NCBI RefSeq assembly: GCF_030028105.1
Contig: NC_092380.1
Location: 82,519,717-82,583,716 of the forward strand
Origin: Mobula birostris
Lineage: Eukaryota
Reading direction: 5' to 3'
Length of the DNA: 64,000 bases
The notes under the pieces were generated by a model, which worked only from the letters and a program-made list of their open reading frames with translations, was not told the origin of the DNA and did not search any database. Below, piece by piece: positions 4,251 through 57,911 of the stretch. Position numbers and translations under genes: made by a program. Each line of letters opens with the position of its first letter. Within the stretch, counting starts at the first letter, position 1.

Positions 4251-4694
4251 AAGGAGAGGGGCGGGTAGGGGTTTGGATTGGGATTGGTGACTGGGAGGAT
4301 GGAGGGAATTGAGAATGTGAAGGTGATATGGGTTGCGGTTGTTGGGCAGTGGGGGTAAGAGGGAGAGATCGACAGCTAGCACTGGATTTGATAGAACTAA
4401 GAAATTGCTACGAGAACCAGCATCCCAGTCCAAATGTCGGGTCTTGACTTGAGACCTGCGCAAATGCTAACTAATAGGTTGAGTTCGACACATTTTTTTT
4501 AAGCTGCAGTCTTGTGTGTTTCCTATTTGTACCCTTGCTGCATGGTCTGCTCAGCCGGGGAAATAGACTTGGTGTTAGCTGATTCGTGGTTCAAAAGTAA
4601 AATTTATTATCAGAGTACACATATGTCACCACGTACAACCCTGAAGTTCATTTTCTGTGGGTATACTTAGCAAATCTATAGAACAATAACAATA

Positions 4695-7570
4695 TTGCAG
4701 TGAGGATGAGAGAAATGTTGAGGTAGACATTGCAGTGAGGAGTGAGAGGTGTGGAGATGGACATTATGCTGAGGAGGGAGAGAAGTGTGGAGATGAACAT
4801 TATGGTGATGGTGAGAGGTGTGGAGATGGACATTGCGGTGATGGTGAGAGAAGTGTGGAGATGGACATTGTGGCGAGGAGGGAGAGAGGTGTGGAGATGG
4901 ACATTGCGGCGAGGAGGGAGAGAGGTGTGGAGATGGACATTGTGGCGAGGAGGGAGAGAGGTGTGGAGATGGATATGCGGCGAGGAGGGAGAGAGGTGTG
5001 GAGATGGACATCGCGGCGAGGAGGGAGAGAGATATGGAGATGGACATCGCAGCGAGGAGGGAGAGAGGTGTGGAGATCGACACTGCGGCGAGGAGGGAGA
5101 GAGGTGTGGAGGTGGACATTGCGGCGAGGAGGGAGAGAGGTGTGGAGGTGGACATTGCGGCGAGGAGGGAGAGAGGTATGGAGGTGGACATTGCGGTGAT
5201 GGTGAGAGAAGTGTGGAGATGGACATTGCGGCGAGGAGGGAGAGAGGTGTGGAGATGGACATTACGGTAATGGTGAGAGAGGTGTGGAGGTGGACATTGC
5301 GGTGATGGTGAGAAGTGTGGAGATAGACATTGCGGCGAGGAGGGAGAGAGATGTGGAGATGGACATTGCGGCGAGGAGGGAGAGAGGTGTGGAGATGGAC
5401 GTTGCGGTGAGGAGGGAGAGAGGTGTGGAGATGGACACTGCGGTGAGGAGGGAGAGAGGTGTGGAGATGGACACTGCGGTGAGGAGGGAGAGAGGTGTGG
5501 AGGTGGACATTGCGGCGAGGAGGGACAGAGGTGTGGAGATGGACACTGCGGCGAGGAGGGAGAGAGGTGTGGAGATGGACACTGCGGTGAGGAGGGAGAG
5601 AGGTGTGGAGATGGACACTGCGGCGAGGAGGGAGAGAGGTGTGGAGATCGACACTGCGGCGAGGAGGGAGAGAGGTGTGGAGGTGGACATTGCGGCGAGG
5701 AGGGAGAGAGGTATGGAGGTGGACATTGCGGTGATGGTGAGAGAAGTGTGGAGATGGACATTGCGGCGAGGAGGGAGAGAGGTGTGGAGATGGACATTGC
5801 GGCGAGGAGGGAGAGAGGTGTGGAGATGGCATTGCGGTGATGGTGAGAGAAGTGTGGAGATGAACATTGCGGCGAGGAGGGAGAGAGCTGTGGAGATGAA
5901 CATCGTGGCGAGGAGGGAGAGAGGTGTGGAGATGGACACTGCGGCGAGGAGGGAGAGAAATGTGGAGATGGACACTGCGGTGAGGAGGGAGAGAGGTGTG
6001 GAGATGGACACTGCGGGGAGAAGGGAGAGTGGTGTGGAGGTGGACATTGCGGCAAGGAGGGAGAGAAATGTGGAGATGGACACTGCGGTGAGGAGGGAGA
6101 GAGGTGTGGAGGTGGACATTGTGGCGAGGAGGGAGAGAGGTGTGGAGATGGACACTGCGGCGAGGAGGGAGAGAGGTGTGGAGATGGACACTGCGGGGAG
6201 AAGGGAGAGAGGTGTGGAGGTGGACATTGCGGCAAGGAGGGAGAGATATGGAGATGGACATCGCAGCGAGGAGGGAGAGAGGTGTGGAGATCGACACTGC
6301 GGTGAGGAGGGAGAGAGGTATGGAGGTGGACATTGCGGTGATGGTGAGAGAAGTGTGGAGATGGACATTGCGGCGAGGAGGGAGAGAGGTGTGGAGATGG
6401 ACATTACGGTAATGGTGAGAGAGGTGTGGAGGTGGACATTGCGGTGATGGTGAGAAGTGTGGAGATAGACATTGCGGCGAGGAGGGAGAGAGATGTGGAG
6501 ATGGACACTGCGGCGAGGAGGGAGAGAGGTGTGGAGATGGACACTGCGGCGAGGAGGGAGAGAGGTGTGGAGATGGACAGTGCGGCGAGGAGGGAGAGAG
6601 GTGTGGAGATGGACACTGCGGCGAGGAGGGAGAGAGGTGTGGAGGTGGACATTGCGGCGAGGAGGGAGAGAGGTGTGGAGATGGCATTGCGGTGATGGTG
6701 AGAGAAGTGTGGAGATGAACATTGCGGCGAGGAGGGAGAGAGCTGTGGAGATGAACATCGTGGCGAGGAGGGAGAGAGGTGTGGAGATGGACACTGCGGC
6801 GAGGAGGGAGAGAGGTGTGGAGATGGACACTGCGGGGAGAAGGGAGAGAGGTGTGGAGGTGGACATTGCGGCAAGGAGGGAGAGAAATGTGGAGATGGAC
6901 ACTGCGGTGAGGAGGGAGAGAGGTGTGGAGGTGGACATTGCGGCAAGGAGGGAGAGAGGTGTGGAGATGGACATTACGGTAATGGTGAGAGAGGTGTGGA
7001 GGTGAACATTGCAGTGATGGTGAGGGAAGTGTGGAGATGGACATTGCGGCGAGGAGGGAGAGAGATGTGGAGATGGACGTTGCGGCGAGGAGGGAGAGAG
7101 GTGAGATGGACACTGCGGCGAGGAGGGAGAGAGGTGTGGAGATGGATATTGCGGCGAGGAGGGAGAGAGGTGTGGAGATGGACATTGTGACGGTGAGAGA
7201 AGTGTGGAGATGGACACCGGCGAGGAGGGAGAGAGGTGTGGAGATCGACATTGCGGCGAGGAGTGAGAGAGGTGTGGAGATGGACATTGCGGTGAGGAGG
7301 GAGAGAGGTGTGGAGATGGACACTGCTGTGAGGAAGGAGAGAGGTATGGAGATGGACGTTGCGGTGACGGTGAGAGAAGTGTGGAGATGGACATCGCGGC
7401 GAGGAGGGAGAGAGGTGTGGAGATGGACATTGCGGTGAGGAGGGTTAGAGGTGTGGAGATGGATATTGCGGTGAGGAGGGAGAGAGGTGTGGAGATGGAC
7501 ATTGTGAGGAGGGAGAGAGGTGTGGAGGTGGACATTGTGGTGAGGGAGAGAAGTGTGGAGATAGACATTT
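4695..7570 (+). repeat. G-rich minisatellite, ~36-bp unit GAGGAGGGAGAGAGGTGTGGAGATGGACATTGCGGC with 33-35 bp variant units, roughly 80 copies
   Basis: Tandem repetition is directly visible; it produces the spurious 12-aa periodic ORFs (RRERGVEMDIAA / MSISTPLSLLAA). Confidence 0.97.
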
Positions 7571-14504: not shown

Positions 14505-16225
14505 TATGCTCCAAATTCAGGTCTCAACTGTGTGTAGTTCTGATCACTACATAAGATGTAATAGTGCTGGGGAAGGAGCAGAGAAGATTCAGTAGGATGT
14601 TGCCTGTGCTGGAACATTTTAGTTATAAGGAGAAACTTAAGAGGCTAGATCTGTTTTCCCTGCAGATGGGGTTTGATTGAGGTGTATAAAATCATATGGA
14701 ATAGAGAGGGTGGACTTCAGGAAACTTCTCTCCTCATTACCTTATCAAAGGTAAATAAAACTAGAGGACATAGATTTGGGGTAAGGGGAAAGAGTAGATC
14801 GTTTCACCCAGAAAATACATGAATGCACTGCTGGAGAGAATGGTAGAAGCACAGTTGCCAATTGTCCAGATGAGCACTTCAATTACCTAGGCATACAGTT
14901 GCAAGAAAAAGTTTGAACCCTTTGCAATTACCTGGTTTTTTACATTAATTACTCATAAAATGTGGTCTGATCTTCATTTAAGTCACAATAATAGACAATT
15001 TGCCTAAATTAATAACATACAAATAATTGTACTTTTCAGGTCTTTATTGAACACATTGTTTAGGCTGGAAAAACTCTGTTAACCCTTGTATTTAAAACTG
15101 GTAGAACCTCCTTTAGCAGCAATAATCTCCATCAAATGTTTCCATTTAGCTGCTGATCAGACTTGCACAAGGGCGAGGAGGAATTTTAGATCATTCCTTC
15201 ATACATATTTCAGTTCATAAATATTTCTGGGATACCCTGCATGAACAGCCCTCTTCGTGTCATGAAGATATCTCAGGCATCTTAATTGGGTTAAAGTCTG
15301 GACATGAATTTTCTTTTTAAACCATTCTGTTGTTGATTTACTCTTGTGTTTTGGATCATTGTCTTGCATCATCCAACTTCTATTAAGCTTCAGGTGACAG
15401 ACGACTACCCTGACATTCTCCAGTAAAGTGTATTGATACCATTTTGAACTTATTGCTCCCTCAACGATTGCAAGCTGTCCAGGCCCTGAGATAGCAAAAC
15501 AGTCCCAAACTATTATGCTCCTTCCACCATGCTTCACAGTTGGGATGAGATTTTTGTGTTAGTGTGCAGTGCCCTTTTACCTCCAAACACACAAAAAGTT
15601 CAACTGTTGTCTCATCTACCCACAGAACATTGTCCCAGAAGTGTTGTGGAGCATCCAGGTGACTGTTTGCAAATCTGAGACGTGTGCAATTTTTTTTTGG
15701 CGAGCAATGGTTTTTCAGTGGTGTCCTTCCTTGAACACCATTCTTGTTCAGTGTTTTTCTTATAATAGGCACATGAACAGAGACCTAAGCAAGTCCTAGA
15801 GATTTCTGACTTAATGTGTTTTTTATAGGGCAAGGCATCTCTACAACCCACACCACCAATCTCACCTCATTGATTGGAATACCTGACTTAATAGCTTTTG
15901 TGGAGGCATTGCCCCATAGGTTCACATAATTTTTTGAACCTAGACTGTGATTGTTTAGATGGTGTACTCCGTATTGAGGGGAAGTACAATTATTTGTGTG
16001 TTATTAATTTAAGCAGATTGTGTTTATCTATTATTGTGAATTAGATGAAGATCAGACCCACATCTTATGACTATTTTATGTAGAAAACCGGGTAATGGCA
16101 AAGGGTTCAGAAACCTGTTCTTGCAGCTGTAGGCATCTATAAGCCAAGAGCTGGAAGGTAGGATAAACATAGGTGGGTAGGTGTTGTGATGGGCTGAATG
16201 GCCTGTTTTTATGCTGTAAAACTCT
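14505..16225 (+). mobile_element. Old CR1 3' fragment split by a Tc1 insertion (pieces 14505-14895 and 16132-16225)
   Basis: QRRFSRMLP and TRGHRF remnants on the left; the CR1 3' UTR GATGGGCTGAATGGCCTGTT resumes after the Tc1. Confidence 0.65.
14896..16129 (-). mobile_element. Tc1/mariner DNA transposon, internally deleted, dead transposase, long IR/DR-type ends
   Basis: TA|CAGTTGCAAGAAAAAGTTTGAACCCTTTGC ... GGCAAAGGGTTCAGAAACCTGTTCTTGCAGCTG|TA; motifs VLWVDETTVELF, KHGGRSIIVW, QDNDPKH. Confidence 0.92.
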
Positions 16226-21660: not shown

Positions 21661-22518
21661 TCACGCCAAAACAAATTGCCAATTTGTCAGCAATATCTCA
21701 ATTCCACTTATCACTGATACTACAGATGTGGCTGGGTTCAGTTTTAATGTTTTTGCATCACCCTTTTTACACTTATCTCTGAAAACATAAATACACCCAT
21801 TGCAGCTGGCAATCTTCCACAGGGAGGGCACACGACTCCAAACCTCTGGGAAACGCAGTCTGGTGAAGCTGTCAAGCAGTGGATTGTAACATACCAAAGA
21901 ATCTCCCTCAGCTACTATAAAAATCAGGTCCTTGTGAATAGCAGCATGCATACGGCCTGCAAACGGGAGGAGATATGACTTTAACTGGCATGTCCTGGAA
22001 CGTGTGTCAAAACACTGAATGAGACGAGATGGTTTGGTAAAGAAGTCCAGGTCATTCTCTTCCCCACCCAGTAAATAGATAGTTCCATTAAGGTTAACAC
22101 CAGCAGCACAAGACACTGCAGTCTCCAACTGATTAGTTTCAACCCACACATTATCACAGACCACATAATAAATGACAGCACTGGAAAGTGTATCCTGAAG
22201 GGTTTTCCCACCCAATGAATAAATGGCATCTTCACTTGGGACGGATACAAGTGTGTGCTGAAGACGATCTCTTGGTAGTGATGCGCATTGTTCCCAGTCC
22301 ATTGTCTCCATGTTGCACTTCCACATCCGTCGTGGGATGGGGCCACCTACAACGTACAGGTCACTTCCATGCTTGCATGCAGCAGTAATCTGCTGGCGTA
22401 ATCGATTTTGCCCACTGACACTGATAGCATCATCATCACAGTGCAAAGAAACTGCCAGTGAATGTGTCCGAGTGTCCTCTTTTCCAATCAGATAAATATG
22501 AACAATTTCACCAATTTC
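21661..22518 (-). CDS. KBTBD4: KBTBD4 last coding exon (kelch repeats)
   Basis: AAACAG|EIGEIVHIYLIGKEDTRTHSLAVSLHC...DLYVVGGPIPRRMWKC...LLTNWQFVLA-TGA; 858 nt. Confidence 0.96.
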   Translation of the reverse strand, partial: EIGEIVHIYLIGKEDTRTHSLAVSLHCDDDAISVSGQNRLRQQITAACKHGSDLYVVGGPIPRRMWKCNMETMDWEQCASLPRDRLQHTLVSVPSEDAIYSLGGKTLQDTLSSAVIYYVVCDNVWVETNQLETAVSCAAGVNLNGTIYLLGGEENDLDFFTKPSRLIQCFDTRSRTCQLKSYLLPFAGRMHAAIHKDLIFIVAEGDSLVCYNPLLDSFTRLRFPEVWSRVPSLWKIASCNGCIYVFRDKCKKGDAKTLKLNPATSVVSVISGIEILLTNWQFVLA

Positions 22519-52579: not shown

Positions 52580-54050
52580 GTTGACTGGCTATCACAGCCT
52601 GGTATGGAAACACCAATGGCCTTGAATGGAATGTACTACAAAAAGTAGTGAATACAGCCCAGTCCATCATGGGTAAAGCCCTCCTAACCTCATCCTAATG
52701 ATTGAAGGGTAGAACTGTTCCTGATCCAGGTGGTTTTAATCTTGGGGCTCTTGTATCTTCTTCCTGATGGCAGCAGCAAGAAGAGAGAATGTCCTACGTG
52801 GTGGGGCTCCCTGATGATGAATGCTGCTTTCTTGTGACGGCATTTCATGTAGATGTGCTCAATGGTTGTGAGGGCATTACCTGTGATGTATCCACTAATA
52901 TTGTAGTATATCCTGTTCAAGGGCATTGGTGTTTCCATACCAGCTGTGATGCAGCCAGTCAATATACCCTCCACTATATATCTATAGACATTTGTCAAAC
53001 TTTAAGGTGTCATGCCATATTTATAAACTAAGGAAGTAAAGGCACTGCTATGCTTTCTTCATAATTGCATTTGCATGCTGGGCCCAGGACAAGTCCTCTG
53101 AAATAATAACACCTAAGAATTTAAAGTTGCTAACCCTCTGATCCTCCAATGAGGACTGGCTCATGAACCTTTGTTTTCCTTCTCTTGAAGTCAGTTATCA
53201 GCTCCTTGGTCTTGCTGACATTGTGAGAGGTTGTTGTTAGGACGCCACTAACCCAGATTTTCAACCTTCCTCCAACCTTCATCACTACCTTTGATTTGGC
53301 CTACCACAGTGGTGTCGTCAGCAAACTTGAATATGGCATTGGAGCTGTGCTCAGCCACACAGTCATAACTGTAAAGTGAGTAGATCAGGGGACTAAACAC
53401 ACTGCCTTGTGTACCTGTGCTGATGGAGATCATATACAGTGAAAAGCTTGTTTTGCATATCGTTTGTACAGAACAGATCATTACACAGTGCATGGAGGCA
53501 GAACAAGGTAAAACCTCAGAGGAAGTGCAGTGCAGACAATAAGGTGCAAGATCATAAGGTGGATTGTGAGGTCTGGACAACCTCTTACTCAAGTCAGCAA
53601 GACCAAGAAGCTGAATATTGACTTCAGGAGGAGGAAGCCAGTGGTCCATGTGCCAGTCCTCATTGAGAGTTCGGAGGTGGAGAGTGTTAGCAACTTCAAG
53701 TTCCTTGGTGTTATTTCAAAAGATCTGTCCTGGGTCCAGCATGTAAGTGCCATTATGATTAAGTGATTTCCTCACTTGCAGTCCCTGGTCAGGTTGGATT
53801 GGCAGGTTCTTTCAGGTCTTTGTATCTTTTGCCTGAAGAGGGGATAAGAGATAAAGTCAGGAGTGAGTGGGGTCTATGCTGGCTGCTTTACTGAGGCAGT
53901 GAGAAATGTTGATAGATTCCATAGAGGGGAGGCTGGCTTTTGTGATGTGCTGAGTTGTGTCCACAACTTTCTATGGTTTCTTGCAGTCATGTGCAGAGCA
54001 GCTGCCATACCAAGCCATTATGGGATGCTTAATATGGTGCATTAAATAAA
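52580..54050. mobile_element. Jumble of Rex1/Babar-like fragments in both orientations
   Basis: Minus-strand FKFADDTTVVG and LPSGRRYKS; plus-strand fragments at 52580-52690 and 53575-53760. Confidence 0.75.
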
Positions 54051-54109
54051 AGTTGGTCCAGCATCTGTCATATTTATTTTGATAAAATTAATTTACAAAT
54101 CTTAGAATT

Positions 54110-54481
54110 GTGCGAGCAAGGAGGCCTACAAACATGACTCAGTTACACCAATTAGAGCAAAATTCCAGCAATTTACTGTGAGAAGCTTGTGGAAGGCTAC
54201 CCAGAACGTTTTACCCAAGTTAAATAATTTAAAGGCAATGCCACCAAATACTAACAAGGTGTATGTAAACTTCTGACCGACGGGGAAAGTGATGAAGGAA
54301 ATAAAAGCTGAAAGAAATCATTCTCTCTGCTATTATTCTGACATTTCACATTCTTCAAATAAAGTAGTGATCCTAACTGACCTAAGACAGGGAATGTTTT
54401 CTAGGAATAAATATCAGGAATTGTGAAAAACTGAGTTTAGATGTACTTGGCTAAGGTGTAGTAAACTTCTGACTTCAACTG
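54110..54481 (+). mobile_element. Sleeping Beauty-like Tc1 right end (transposase C-terminus plus complete right IR/DR)
   Basis: VRARRPTNMTQLHQ..YCEKLVEGYPERFTQVK*FKGNATKY-TAA; inner DR GTGTATGTAAACTTCTGAC at ~54259; terminus AAACTTCTGACTTCAACTG|TA. Confidence 0.9.
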
Positions 54482-54679
54482 TAGATACACAAGCCTGGAC
54501 AGTATAATATAGAGAGCAAGCTGTTGCCTGTGTAGCAAGATGAACCCAAAGGAACAGCAGAGATGAATACCGTTTGGTACCAGCAACATTGCAGGAGTTG
54601 CCAGTCAACATTGAACTCAATGTAGGACTACCCTGGGGATTGCGGCTCTGGATTTTTCCCTCAGTGTTTACTCCTGAAG

Positions 54680-55760
54680 CTTTATGTATGGTGGAGAGCA
54701 TGCTGACTGGTTGCGTCACTGACTAGTATGGAGGCATCAATGCACAGGATAGAAAGAGTCTGCAGAGCACTGTGGGACTCGGGCAACTCCATCACTAGCA
54801 CAGCCCTCCCCATAATCAAGGACAAGTCCTGTCCTGGAACAATCACCTACTGTAAGCATTGTCACAATGAAGGCTTGACAGTGCTACTTTCTTAGAGGTT
54901 TGCGTAGATTCATCACATCACCAAGAATTTTGACAAACTTCTAGAGATGCCCTTTTTCCCAGGGCTGAAATGGCTAACACGAGGCGGCATAGTTTTAAAG
55001 TGCTTGGAAGTTAGTACAGAGGGGATGTCAGGGGTAAATTTTTCCATTCACAGTGTGGTGGGTGCATGGAATGCACTGCCAGCGACAGTGATAGAGGCAG
55101 ATACAATCGGATCTCTTAAGAGACTCTTAGATAGGTACATGGTATGCAGTAGGGAAATTCTAGGCAGTTTCTAGAGTGGGTTACATAGTCAGCACAACAT
55201 TGTGGGCTGAAGGGCCTGTAATGTGCTGTAGATTTCTATGTTCTATGTTCTATGCACAGTGGAGAGTATCCTAACTGGTTGCATAGTAGCCAGTTTGGAA
55301 ACACCAATGCCCACGAATGGAAATTGTTACAGAAAGTGGTGGACACACCTGACTCCATCACAGGTAAAGCCCTCCCCACGAATACGTTTTAATAGAGTGC
55401 TGCCACAAGAAAGCAGCATCCATCATCACAGATCCCAACCATCCAGGTCATGCCCTCTTCTCTCTACTATCAGTGGGCAGAAGATAACAGAGTCCTGGGT
55501 CCTACACGACCAGGTTCAGGAACAGTTGTTACAACCATCCGGCTCCTGAATCAGCATGGATAGCTCCAATCATCACTATTCTGAATTGATTCTACGACCA
55601 CAGATTCACTTTCAAGGACTATTTACAACTCATGTTCTCAATTTTTTTTTATTCATACAGCTTGTTTTCTTTTGTTAGTCTTTCTGTATAATTTTTATAA
55701 ATTCTATTTTATTTTTTCCTGTAAATGCCTGCAAGAAAATAAATCTCAAGATACTACATA
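54680..55760 (+). mobile_element. Rex1-like 3' fragments with a CR1 3' end inserted at ~54950-55250
   Basis: The Rex reading (TNF.RCTVESILTGCI) is split by CR1 sequence that ends in (TTCTATG)n. Confidence 0.7.
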
Positions 55761-55950: not shown

Positions 55951-57911
55951 ACAACAAAGAACAACTAAACAAGAAATAAGGAAAGGGAAGATAGAGTATG
56001 AAAGTAAATTAGCACAAAATATAAAAACAGATAGCAAAAGTTTTTATAAATATATAAAGTGAAAGAGGGTGGCTGAAGTCAACAGGAGTCCCGTGGAAGA
56101 CAAGAAGGGGAAACTGATATTGGGTGATAAGGATATGGCTGAGGCATTGAACGACTATTTTGTGTGGGTCTTCACGATGGAGGACACATCTAATATGCCA
56201 AAGAGTGATGTTATGGAGAAAATGGAAGGTGAGGACCTCGATGAAGTCACTGTCACTAAAGAGATAGTGATGAGAAAACTAGAGGGCCTGAAGGTAGTTA
56301 AGTCCCCTGGTCCTGATGGGATGCAACCCAGGATGCTGACGGAATTGGCGGAGGTTATAGTAGACGCGTTGGTAATCATTTAGCAAAATTCTCTATAGAC
56401 TCTGGGCAGGTCCCGGCGGATTGGTAGACAGCAAATGTCATGCCACTTTTTAAAAAAGGATGCAGGCAAAAGATGGGCAACTATAGGCCAGTTAACTTAA
56501 CATCTGTAGTTGAGAAAATGCTTGAAGCTGTCATTAAGGAAGAAATAGCTAAATATTTAGAAAGGCGTGGTTCCATTAGACAGATGCAGCATGGATTCAG
56601 AAAGGGCACGTCCTGTTTGACAAACTTACTGGAGTTCTTTGAGGACGTAATGAGTGCAGTGGATAGAAGGGAACAGGTGGATGTTGTATACTTGGGTTTC
56701 CAGAAGGCATTCGATAAGGTGCCACACAAGAGACTTATAAATAAGATACAGATGCATGGAGTTGGAGGAAGTGTATTGGCATGGATAGTGGGTTGGTTCA
56801 CCAGTAGAAGGCAGAGAGTTGATATAAATGGGTGTTTCTCCGGTTGGCAGTCTGTGGTGAGCGGGGTGCCGCAGGGGTTGGGGCTGGGCCCGCAGCTGTT
56901 TACCATTTACATTGATGATTTGGAAGAGGGGATTGAGTGTAGCGTAGCAAAATTTGCTGATGACACTAAACTGAGTGGAGAAACAAATCGTACAGAGGAG
57001 GTGGAGTATCTGCAGAGGGATATAGATAGGTTAAGTGAGTGGGCCAAGGTCTGGCAGATGGAATACAACATTGGTAAATGTGAGATCATCCACTTTGGAA
57101 GGAATAATAGGAGAACCAATTATTATTTAAATGGTGAAAGGGAAGATTATTATTTAAATGGTAAAAAATTGCAGCATGCTGCTGTGCAGAGGGACTTGGG
57201 AGTGCTTGTGCATGAATCACAAAAGGTTGGTTTGCAGGTACAGCAGGCTATCAAGAAGGCAAATGGAACGTTGACCTTCATTGCTAGAGGGATTGAATTA
57301 AAGAGCAGTGAAATTATGCTGCAACTATACAGGGTATTGGTGAGGCTGCACCTGGAGTACTGCGTGCAATTCTGCTCTCCTTACTTGAGGACGGATATAC
57401 TGGCTTTGGAGGCGGTGCAGAGGAGGTTCACCAGGTTGATTCCAGAGATGAGGGGGTTAGACTATGAGGAGAGATTGAGTCGCCTGGGACTGTATTCGCT
57501 GGAATTCAGAAGAATGAGAGGAGATCGTATAGAAACATAAAACATTATGAAAGGGATAAATGAGATAGAGGAAGGAAAGTTGTTTCCACTGGTAGGTGAG
57601 ACTAGCACTAGGGGACATAGCCTCAAGATTCGGGGGAGTAGATTTAGGACAGAGATGAGGAGGAATTGCTTTTCCCAGAGAGTGGTGAATCTGTGGAATT
57701 CTCTGCCTAATGAAGTAGTGCAGGATACCTTTGTAAATATATTTAAGACAAGGTCGGATAGATTTTTACATAGGGGAACTAAGGGTTATAGGAAAAAGGC
57801 AGGTAGGTGGAGATGAGTCCATGGCCAGATCAGCCATGATCTTACTGAATGGCCCAGCAGGCTCGACGGGCCAGGTGGCCTACTCTTGCTCCTATTTCTT
57901 ATGTTCTCATG
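55951..57911 (+). mobile_element. 5'-truncated CR1 LINE with a largely open RT
   Basis: ORF 56440-57540 (366 aa: NYRPVNLTS, QHGFRKG, FQKAFDKVPH, SGVPQG, KFADDTKL), followed by a 3' UTR and a TTCTTATG tail. Confidence 0.95.

What the first reader, a model, noticed from the sequence alone, without database searches (positions are those of the whole stretch)
54110..54483. Sleeping Beauty-like transposon end in a probable cartilaginous fish: horizontal transfer candidate
Seen: a transposase C-terminus (ARRPTN.TQLHQ...YCEKLVEGYP.R.TQVK.FKGNATKY*), then a ~225-bp end with two direct repeats terminating GACTTCAACTG|TA. Known: Sleeping Beauty was rebuilt from salmonid Tc1 elements; as I recall it ends ARRPTNLTQLHQLCQEEWAKIHPTYCGKLVEGYPKRLTQVKQFKGNATKY and its right IR/DR contains GTGATCCTAACTGACCTAAGACAGGGAAT, which occurs here verbatim. 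The non-coding inter-DR spacer seems to differ only by scattered substitutions. Inference: vertical descent over more than 400 My would not preserve that spacer, so horizontal transfer is likely. Such ends might also be cross-mobilised by SB transposase. Horizontal transfer of Tc1 elements among aquatic vertebrates is a known phenomenon, so only this instance may be new.
Basis: partly seen in the sequence, partly recalled or inferred. Interest (0 to 1): 0.7.

Follow-up and report, generated by a model that had tools for sequence, protein, structure and literature searches.

The report
Sleeping Beauty remnant in a ray
This is the dead right end of a Sleeping Beauty-type jumping gene in a ray genome, one of roughly a thousand decayed copies whose shared sequence is 97% identical to the salmon-type element, so the element very likely crossed between bony fishes and rays, a known kind of event in a host group where we found no published record of it.

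Summary
Observation confirmed. Window 54109-54481 holds the last ~53 codons (frameshifted, one internal stop) and the right IR/DR end of a Sleeping Beauty (SB/Tss1) Tc1 element, followed by TA. No left end lies in the window. The host is a myliobatiform ray: KBTBD4 exons are 99-100% identical to mobulid and dasyatid rays, 72-85% to teleosts. The genome holds about a thousand copies, ~3.5% diverged from their majority sequence. That majority is 97.2% identical to a salmon-consensus-type element (inter-DR spacer 161/165; dS 0.039) but carries ~30 near-fixed ray alleles, which argues against both vertical descent and contamination. Horizontal transfer is very likely. Direction and donor are unresolved; the salmon type is a sister lineage, not a proven source. 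Nearly all copies are non-autonomous: 614 junction matches for a form with two right ends, 135 for a form lacking UTR and ATG, and 2 full-length copies, both broken. A 2022 survey lists no SB-clade element in cartilaginous fish. This scan had already noted the same family on other DNA (15 findings). Verdict: new host instance of a well-known process; moderate interest.

The parts
54109..54254 (+). Last ~53 codons of an SB-clade transposase gene, 5'-truncated, with 14 nt deleted (frameshift), a premature stop at 54225-54227 and the native stop at 54252-54254
   Evidence: the same region of sister copy L003 matches PDB 5cr4 (SB100X) residues 176-230 at E 1e-25
54256..54481 (+). Right IR/DR terminal repeat (226 nt)
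   Evidence: 208/227 identical to L091; 205/227 to the SB right repeat printed in the PMC6362248 supplement, compared by eye
54256..54287 (+). Inner direct repeat (transposase binding site), with substitutions
   Evidence: aligned to L091; approximate bounds
54287..54450 (+). Non-coding inter-DR spacer, including the 29-nt motif at 54367-54395
   Evidence: 153/165 identical to L091; motif found in salmon Tss1 copies
54451..54481 (+). Outer direct repeat and element terminus, one base deleted
   Evidence: the missing base is present in contigs of four other runs (table 4)
54482..54483 (+). TA target dinucleotide (right half of the target-site duplication)
   Evidence: two-ended copies have TA on both sides in 21 of 25 and 25 of 31 cases
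21664..22518 (-). Host marker, not part of the element: KBTBD4 exon used to place the host among rays
   Evidence: 285/285 aa identical to three myliobatiform rays, 278-283 to other elasmobranchs, 239-243/286 to teleosts

Best explanation
This is a dead, left-truncated right end of a Sleeping Beauty/Tss1-type cut-and-paste transposon in a ray genome, and its family very likely entered the ray lineage by horizontal transfer, probably from a ray-finned fish lineage related to but distinct from the salmon element. Shown: SB-type sequence, ray host, about a thousand decayed copies with a star-like tree, and three structural forms. Inferred: an autonomous ~1.64-kb founder with an SB-like left end, UTR and 340-codon gene invaded the germ line and supplied transposase. 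Two defective derivatives were then copied in trans into TA sites: form A, whose left end is replaced by a ~434-bp mirror copy of the right end and which lacks codons 1-19; and form B, which keeps the native left end but lacks UTR and start codon. They outnumbered the founder by hundreds to one and the family died out. This copy later lost everything left of codon ~288 and now decays neutrally; it cannot move.
For: Family majority (59 of 86 de-duplicated loci long enough) versus L091: 1162/1196 nt; CDS 937/963; dS 0.039, dN 0.024; right end 220/227; spacer 161/165. Protein 302/321 identical to a named SB vector transposase, with D153/D244/E279 present. L091 is a metagenome contig of unnamed host, but it carries all 7 positions that PMC6362248 gives as diagnostic of the Salmo salar consensus ends (by eye). 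A constrained host gene, KBTBD4, differs from teleosts at 15-28% of amino acids. Ray copies form their own clade (92/91) inside the SB clade (100/99) beside salmonid and other teleost lineages. Copies are 3.4% (form A, n=32) and 3.9% (form B, n=27) K2P from the majority; pooled pN/pS 0.78 with 107 stop codons in 60 copies. Pattern counts with up to 1 mismatch, reversed controls 0: internal 24-mer 855, form A junction 614, form B junction 135, native ATG context 1. The native UTR matched 3 places, 2 of them full-length copies.
Against: No host-gene dS against a teleost was computed, because no teleost host-gene DNA was available; amino-acid distance stands in for it. Absence in sharks and skates rests on one published survey of older assemblies and on annotated-protein searches (1 chondrichthyan-named hit among 98 and among 65 rows, from a mobulid ray). 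The tree leaves ray, salmonid and other teleost SB lineages as an unresolved three-way split, so direction is not shown. The left end is only 201/219 identical to the salmon type, further than the rest of the element. Scored copies were best BLAST hits, so divergence is biased low; the window copy itself has 20 mismatches in 375 aligned bases.
Confidence: 0.93

Rival explanations
1. Vertical descent: the element was in the common ancestor of cartilaginous and bony fishes and stayed conserved in both lines.
For: Chondrichthyan genomes evolve slowly (recalled), and sharks and skates were not searched directly here.
Against: dS 0.039 and a 97.6% identical non-coding spacer, against 15-28% amino-acid divergence in a constrained host gene. 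The copies decay nearly neutrally. Other teleost SB-clade transposases are further from the ray majority (81-87%) than the salmon type is (94%).
Confidence: 0.01
2. Contamination or assembly artefact: salmonid or SB-vector DNA was built into a ray assembly.
For: SB vectors and salmonid DNA are common in laboratories (general knowledge). No raw reads of this individual were laid across the junction.
Against: Hundreds of copies on many large contigs, with different flanks and TA duplications. At 31 of the 34 sites where the ray majority differs from L091, at least 49 of 60 ray copies share the ray allele. Contigs of four other coded organisms carry ray-type alleles together with the ray flank repeats.
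Confidence: 0.01
3. Transfer happened, but not fish-to-ray: rays were the donor, or rays and salmonids each received the element from a third carrier such as an unsampled fish or a parasite.
For: The ray clade is not nested within the salmonid clade. There are ~30 near-fixed differences and a more distant left end. Parasite-borne Tc1 transfer has been proposed (PMC12441823, passages; PMC3516227, listing only).
Against: Known SB-clade diversity (107 species, 33 orders) and most of the SB-like sister clade are ray-finned fishes (PMC9777934), which makes a ray-finned source more parsimonious.
Confidence: 0.3

Closest known systems
Sleeping Beauty / salmonid Tss1 (SB clade of DD34E/Tc1; PMC9777934, PMC6362248; PDB 5cr4, 5unk, 2m8e)
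   Same: Same IR/DR right end, TA target and DD34E transposase (94% aa, 97% nt for the family majority). Two full-length ray copies (L153, L155) are colinear with the 1639-nt salmon-type element at 91-92%.
   Different: Host is a cartilaginous fish. About 30 near-fixed ray alleles; left end 8% divergent. The dominant ray form has two right ends with ~434-bp arms and no native left end, UTR or start codon. No intact autonomous copy was seen. PMC9777934 reports SB-clade TIRs up to 415 bp and a 3' TIR overlapping the ORF in ray-finned fishes, which may be a similar form; its Table S1 could not be read.
Horizontally transferred Tc1/mariner elements of vertebrates (PMC7070016; PMC3516227; ZB-like clade in one chondrichthyan, PMC9777934)
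   Same: Same signature: low element divergence across a deep host split, followed by near-neutral decay inside the host.
   Different: PMC7070016 finds 93.7% of 975 transfers involve ray-finned fishes; its main text has no hit for cartilaginous, chondrichth-, shark or skate. The one chondrichthyan record in PMC9777934 is ZB-like, not SB.
pT3-type SB vectors with a duplicated left end (PMC8151067)
   Same: [quoted passage not shown]
   Different: In the laboratory the left end, with its half-DR enhancer, is the favoured one (2-3 fold gain). The natural ray form that multiplied most duplicates the right end instead.

Membership tests
SB/Tss1 clade of IR/DR Tc1 (DD34E) | DD34E catalytic triad at SB positions 153/244/279 | tested here: met
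   Present in the family majority; the window remnant itself is too short to include it
SB/Tss1 clade of IR/DR Tc1 (DD34E) | ~227-bp ends, each with an inner and an outer direct repeat | tested here: met
   Right end at 54256-54481; both ends in L153 and L155
SB/Tss1 clade of IR/DR Tc1 (DD34E) | TA target-site duplication | tested here: met
   TA on both sides in 21 of 25 form A and 25 of 31 other two-ended copies; only the right TA survives in the window
SB/Tss1 clade of IR/DR Tc1 (DD34E) | Transposase groups with SB rather than with the more distant sister group | tested here: met
   100/99 support for the 16-row SB group that includes the 3 ray rows; 94% aa to SB versus 65% to the outgroup proteins
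SB/Tss1 clade of IR/DR Tc1 (DD34E) | Distinct left end, then 5' UTR, then ATG | tested here: met
   Met by 2 full-length copies. Not present in form A (614 junction matches), partly in form B (135), and lost from the window copy
Autonomous (active) SB element | Intact 340-codon gene with start codon between two ends | tested here: not met
   L153 stops after 130 codons; L155 has 2 stops and a frameshift. Three copies are stop-free from codon 20 on but lack codons 1-19. Only about 90 of roughly a thousand copies were examined
Substrate of SB transposase | Excised and integrated by SB100X | not testable with these tools
   Needs a cell assay; all four DRs are required (PMC7827188), so the one-ended window copy is not a substrate
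Horizontally transferred element | Element divergence far below host-gene divergence | tested here: met
   dS 0.039 versus 15-28% amino-acid divergence of KBTBD4; host dS itself not computed
Horizontally transferred element | Patchy distribution (absent from sister host lineages) | tested here: inconclusive
   No SB in Chondrichthyes in PMC9777934; no shark or skate names among protein hits; shark and skate genomes could not be searched
Horizontally transferred element | Contamination excluded | tested here: met
   Ray-specific alleles and junctions, dispersed copies with TA flanks, same alleles in contigs of four coded organisms

The most novel reading that the evidence does not exclude
After crossing into rays, the element evolved a two-right-end form that beat the native left/right form about 4.5 to 1 because long matched right arms transpose better in a natural germ line, the opposite of the left-end preference known from SB vectors. 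A second, separately built two-right-end copy with TA on both sides (L156, 349-bp arm) hints that this happened more than once. If so, the ray ends are a natural variant worth testing in SB vectors, and the burst is part of the Tc1/mariner excess reported in rays.
Probability: 0.25. Interest if true: 0.62.

Novelty: new member of a known kind. Interest (0 to 1): 0.4.

Why it matters
It extends the SB clade, source of a widely used gene-transfer tool, from ray-finned fishes into cartilaginous fishes, a group nearly missing from the transposon-transfer surveys read here. About a thousand dated insertions could serve as presence/absence markers for ray phylogeny and for timing the transfer. It names one concrete, likely foreign contributor to the Tc1/mariner excess reported in rays (PMC12361510), though ~1.7 Mb of 4 Gb is a small share of it. 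The dominance of a two-right-end form gives a cheap test of whether the end preferences measured for SB vectors hold in nature. The window copy itself has no likely function.

Tried and rejected
No match in the plasmid or phage collections. No left end or further part of the element in the window; the only other Tc1 hit, near 15.3-15.8 kb, is a distant family. The remnant is not part of a repeated composite: the 50 bases left of it matched only this locus (7 candidates scored; the search skips common words). The near-equal length of form A (about 1638 nt) and SB suggested in-register gene conversion. Rejected: the junction keeps a 15-nt piece of the native UTR, so a ~172-nt gain and a ~170-nt deletion nearly cancel. 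Aligned sequences in the PMC9777934 supplement were cut at 400 characters and its Table S1 was too large to read, so per-species TIR lengths and the genomes screened were not seen. The sequencing-run search gave coded organisms only, none above 0.23 of the words, so no run confirms this locus. One contig of coded organism E covers the left flank (53729-54106) and then goes on for 74 unlaid letters that were not shown, so an orthologous filled or empty site could not be called. No batoid substitution rate was found, so no absolute age is given. The first frame check of L155 picked a wrong ATG and was redone. Not-in-print claim: searches found no report of an SB-clade element in rays; subscription journals, Repbase and Dfam were not searchable.

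Full report
Observation. The feature is real. Window 54109-54481 aligns to the last 388 nt of a full-length salmon-type SB element at 339/388, E 6e-137. It holds about 53 C-terminal transposase codons, broken by 14 nt of deletion and a premature stop, then a 226-nt right IR/DR end and TA. No other part of this element is in the window.

Reference used. The SB right repeat printed in the supplement of PMC6362248 matches the window at 205/227 by eye. For computed comparisons I used L091, the best of 62 metagenome loci found with a named SB vector transposase. It is a 1639-nt TA-flanked element whose protein differs from the vector protein at 4 of 340 residues, and whose ends show all 7 positions that PMC6362248 gives for the Salmo salar consensus (by eye). 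I therefore call it salmon-type.

Host. Two KBTBD4 exons in the window are 201/201 and 285/285 identical to one mobulid ray, 199-200/201 and 285/285 to two other myliobatiform rays, 93-99% to other elasmobranchs and 72-85% to four teleosts. The host is a myliobatiform ray. The neighbouring genes look like PTPMT1 and NDUFS3 (names recalled, from translations); the remnant lies about 3.5 kb past the last NDUFS3-like exon seen.

The family. The 4.0-Gb genome gave 1661, 2006 and 195 first-look candidates for the right end, the middle and the native left end (40 scored each). Exact counts with up to 1 mismatch: 855 for an internal 24-mer, 614 for the form A junction, 135 for the form B junction and 1 for the native ATG context, all with reversed controls of 0. 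At 3.5% divergence about 80% of copies pass such a pattern (my calculation), which gives roughly 1,100 copies.

Form A is about 1638 nt, with ~434-bp inverted arms copied from the right end, and lacks codons 1-19 (27 of 30 loci carry its junction). Form B is about 1466 nt, keeps the native left end and lacks UTR and ATG (30 of 30 loci). Two copies, L153 and L155, are full length and colinear with L091 at 91-92%; both are broken. L156 is a separately built two-right-end copy with a 349-bp arm and TA on both sides.

Divergence. I built a majority sequence from 59 of 86 de-duplicated loci (those aligning over at least 1100 of 1196 nt). Copies are 3.4% (A) and 3.9% (B) K2P from it. Their tree is star-like, and pooled pN/pS is 0.78 with 107 stops in 60 copies, which fits one burst followed by near-neutral decay. 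These are best-scoring hits, so the values are biased low. Against L091 the majority is 1162/1196 identical: CDS 937/963, dS 0.039, dN 0.024, right end 220/227, spacer 161/165. The left end is further off, 201/219 (25 copies). At 31 of the 34 differing sites at least 49 of 60 ray copies share the ray allele, so this is a separate lineage and not salmon DNA.

Tree and distribution. In a 19-row protein tree the three ray rows group together (92/91) inside the SB clade (100/99), in an unresolved split with a salmonid group and a Sparus/Coilia/Prochilodus group (midpoint root). PMC9777934 (parts 1-4 of 6 and both tables read) found the SB clade in 107 ray-finned species and one mollusc, and in no chondrichthyan. 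The only chondrichthyan-named hit in two protein searches was a mobulid gene model containing this transposase (P0067; 1 of 98 and 1 of 65 rows). Of 24 listed sequencing runs I laid 7. Three (coded organisms B, C, G) carry salmon-type alleles at very high depth and almost no cover of the ray flanks. Four (A, D, E, F) carry ray-type alleles and cover the flank repeats (for E and F partly inferred from missing rows at diagnostic sites, with 18 rows not shown). Names are coded, so this shows spread among several ray-like organisms, not which ones.

How it worked. Established for SB (PMC7827188 and PMC5224488, passages): transposase binds four DRs, pairs the ends, excises the element and inserts it at TA; the left end has a half-DR enhancer that is helpful but not essential. 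Inferred here: an autonomous founder arrived horizontally; defective forms A and B arose by microhomology-linked deletion and end replacement (the form A junction keeps 15 nt of native UTR); they were amplified in trans until the family died. The window copy has lost its left part, so its form cannot be told, and it is inert.

Rivals. Vertical descent over a split older than 400 My (age recalled) cannot give dS 0.04 when a constrained host protein differs by 15-28%. Contamination is excluded by ray-specific alleles, junctions and dispersed TA-flanked sites. Direction and donor stay open. A ray-finned source is favoured only by where the clade's diversity lies.

Novelty. Tc1 transfer among aquatic vertebrates is well documented (PMC7070016, passages; PMC3516227, listing). 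My seven searches found no report of an SB-clade element in rays. PMC12361510 and its preprint (passages) report a Tc1/mariner excess in skates and rays and mention SB only as a category. A mobulid genome preprint and a Squalomix preprint had no hit for Tc1 or TcMar; preprint supplements were closed. Long TIRs overlapping the ORF are already noted for the SB clade (PMC9777934), so the two-right-end form may have teleost precedents in a table I could not read. The 4.5:1 excess of form A contrasts with the left-end preference of SB vectors (PMC8151067, passage; PMC4505599, passage) but may be a founder effect. This scan had already recorded the same family and the two-right-end form on other DNA: 15 findings, 8 shown, read after my analysis was done. 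They are not independent support.

Verdict. Observation confirmed, horizontal transfer very likely (0.93), new member of a known kind, interest 0.4.

Noticed in passing
window 15199-15784 (- strand): Fragment of a second, distant Tc1 family (38-49% aa to SB transposase), unrelated to the 54.1-kb remnant.
   Followed up: no
L153 256-1900 and L155 256-1899: The only two full-length copies found with native left end and UTR; both genes are broken. They show what the founder looked like.
   Followed up: partly
L156 350-1939: A two-right-end copy with a different arm length (349 bp) that keeps native positions ~216-275; suggests the UTR deletion came first and left-end replacement happened more than once.
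   Followed up: partly
L002 1734-2696, L042 1508-2470, L050 1296-2258: Three copies are stop-free over codons 20-340 but lack the start codon and first 19 codons.
   Followed up: partly
protein P0067: A mobulid gene model named LACTB2 isoform X2 consists mostly of this transposase; probably an annotation artefact or an exonised copy.
   Followed up: no
window 4650-7570: About 3 kb of GC-rich, strongly skewed tandem repeat with long spurious ORFs inside the PTPMT1-like gene.
   Followed up: no
window 3852-50571: Gene order PTPMT1-like (+), KBTBD4 (-), NDUFS3-like (+), as recalled for other vertebrates; only KBTBD4 was confirmed by a search.
   Followed up: partly
window 52600-55530 and 56063-57816: The remnant sits among decayed LINE-like pieces in both orientations (inverted arms 72-88% alike) and next to a reverse-transcriptase-like ORF at 56428-57540 (family names recalled, not searched).
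   Followed up: no
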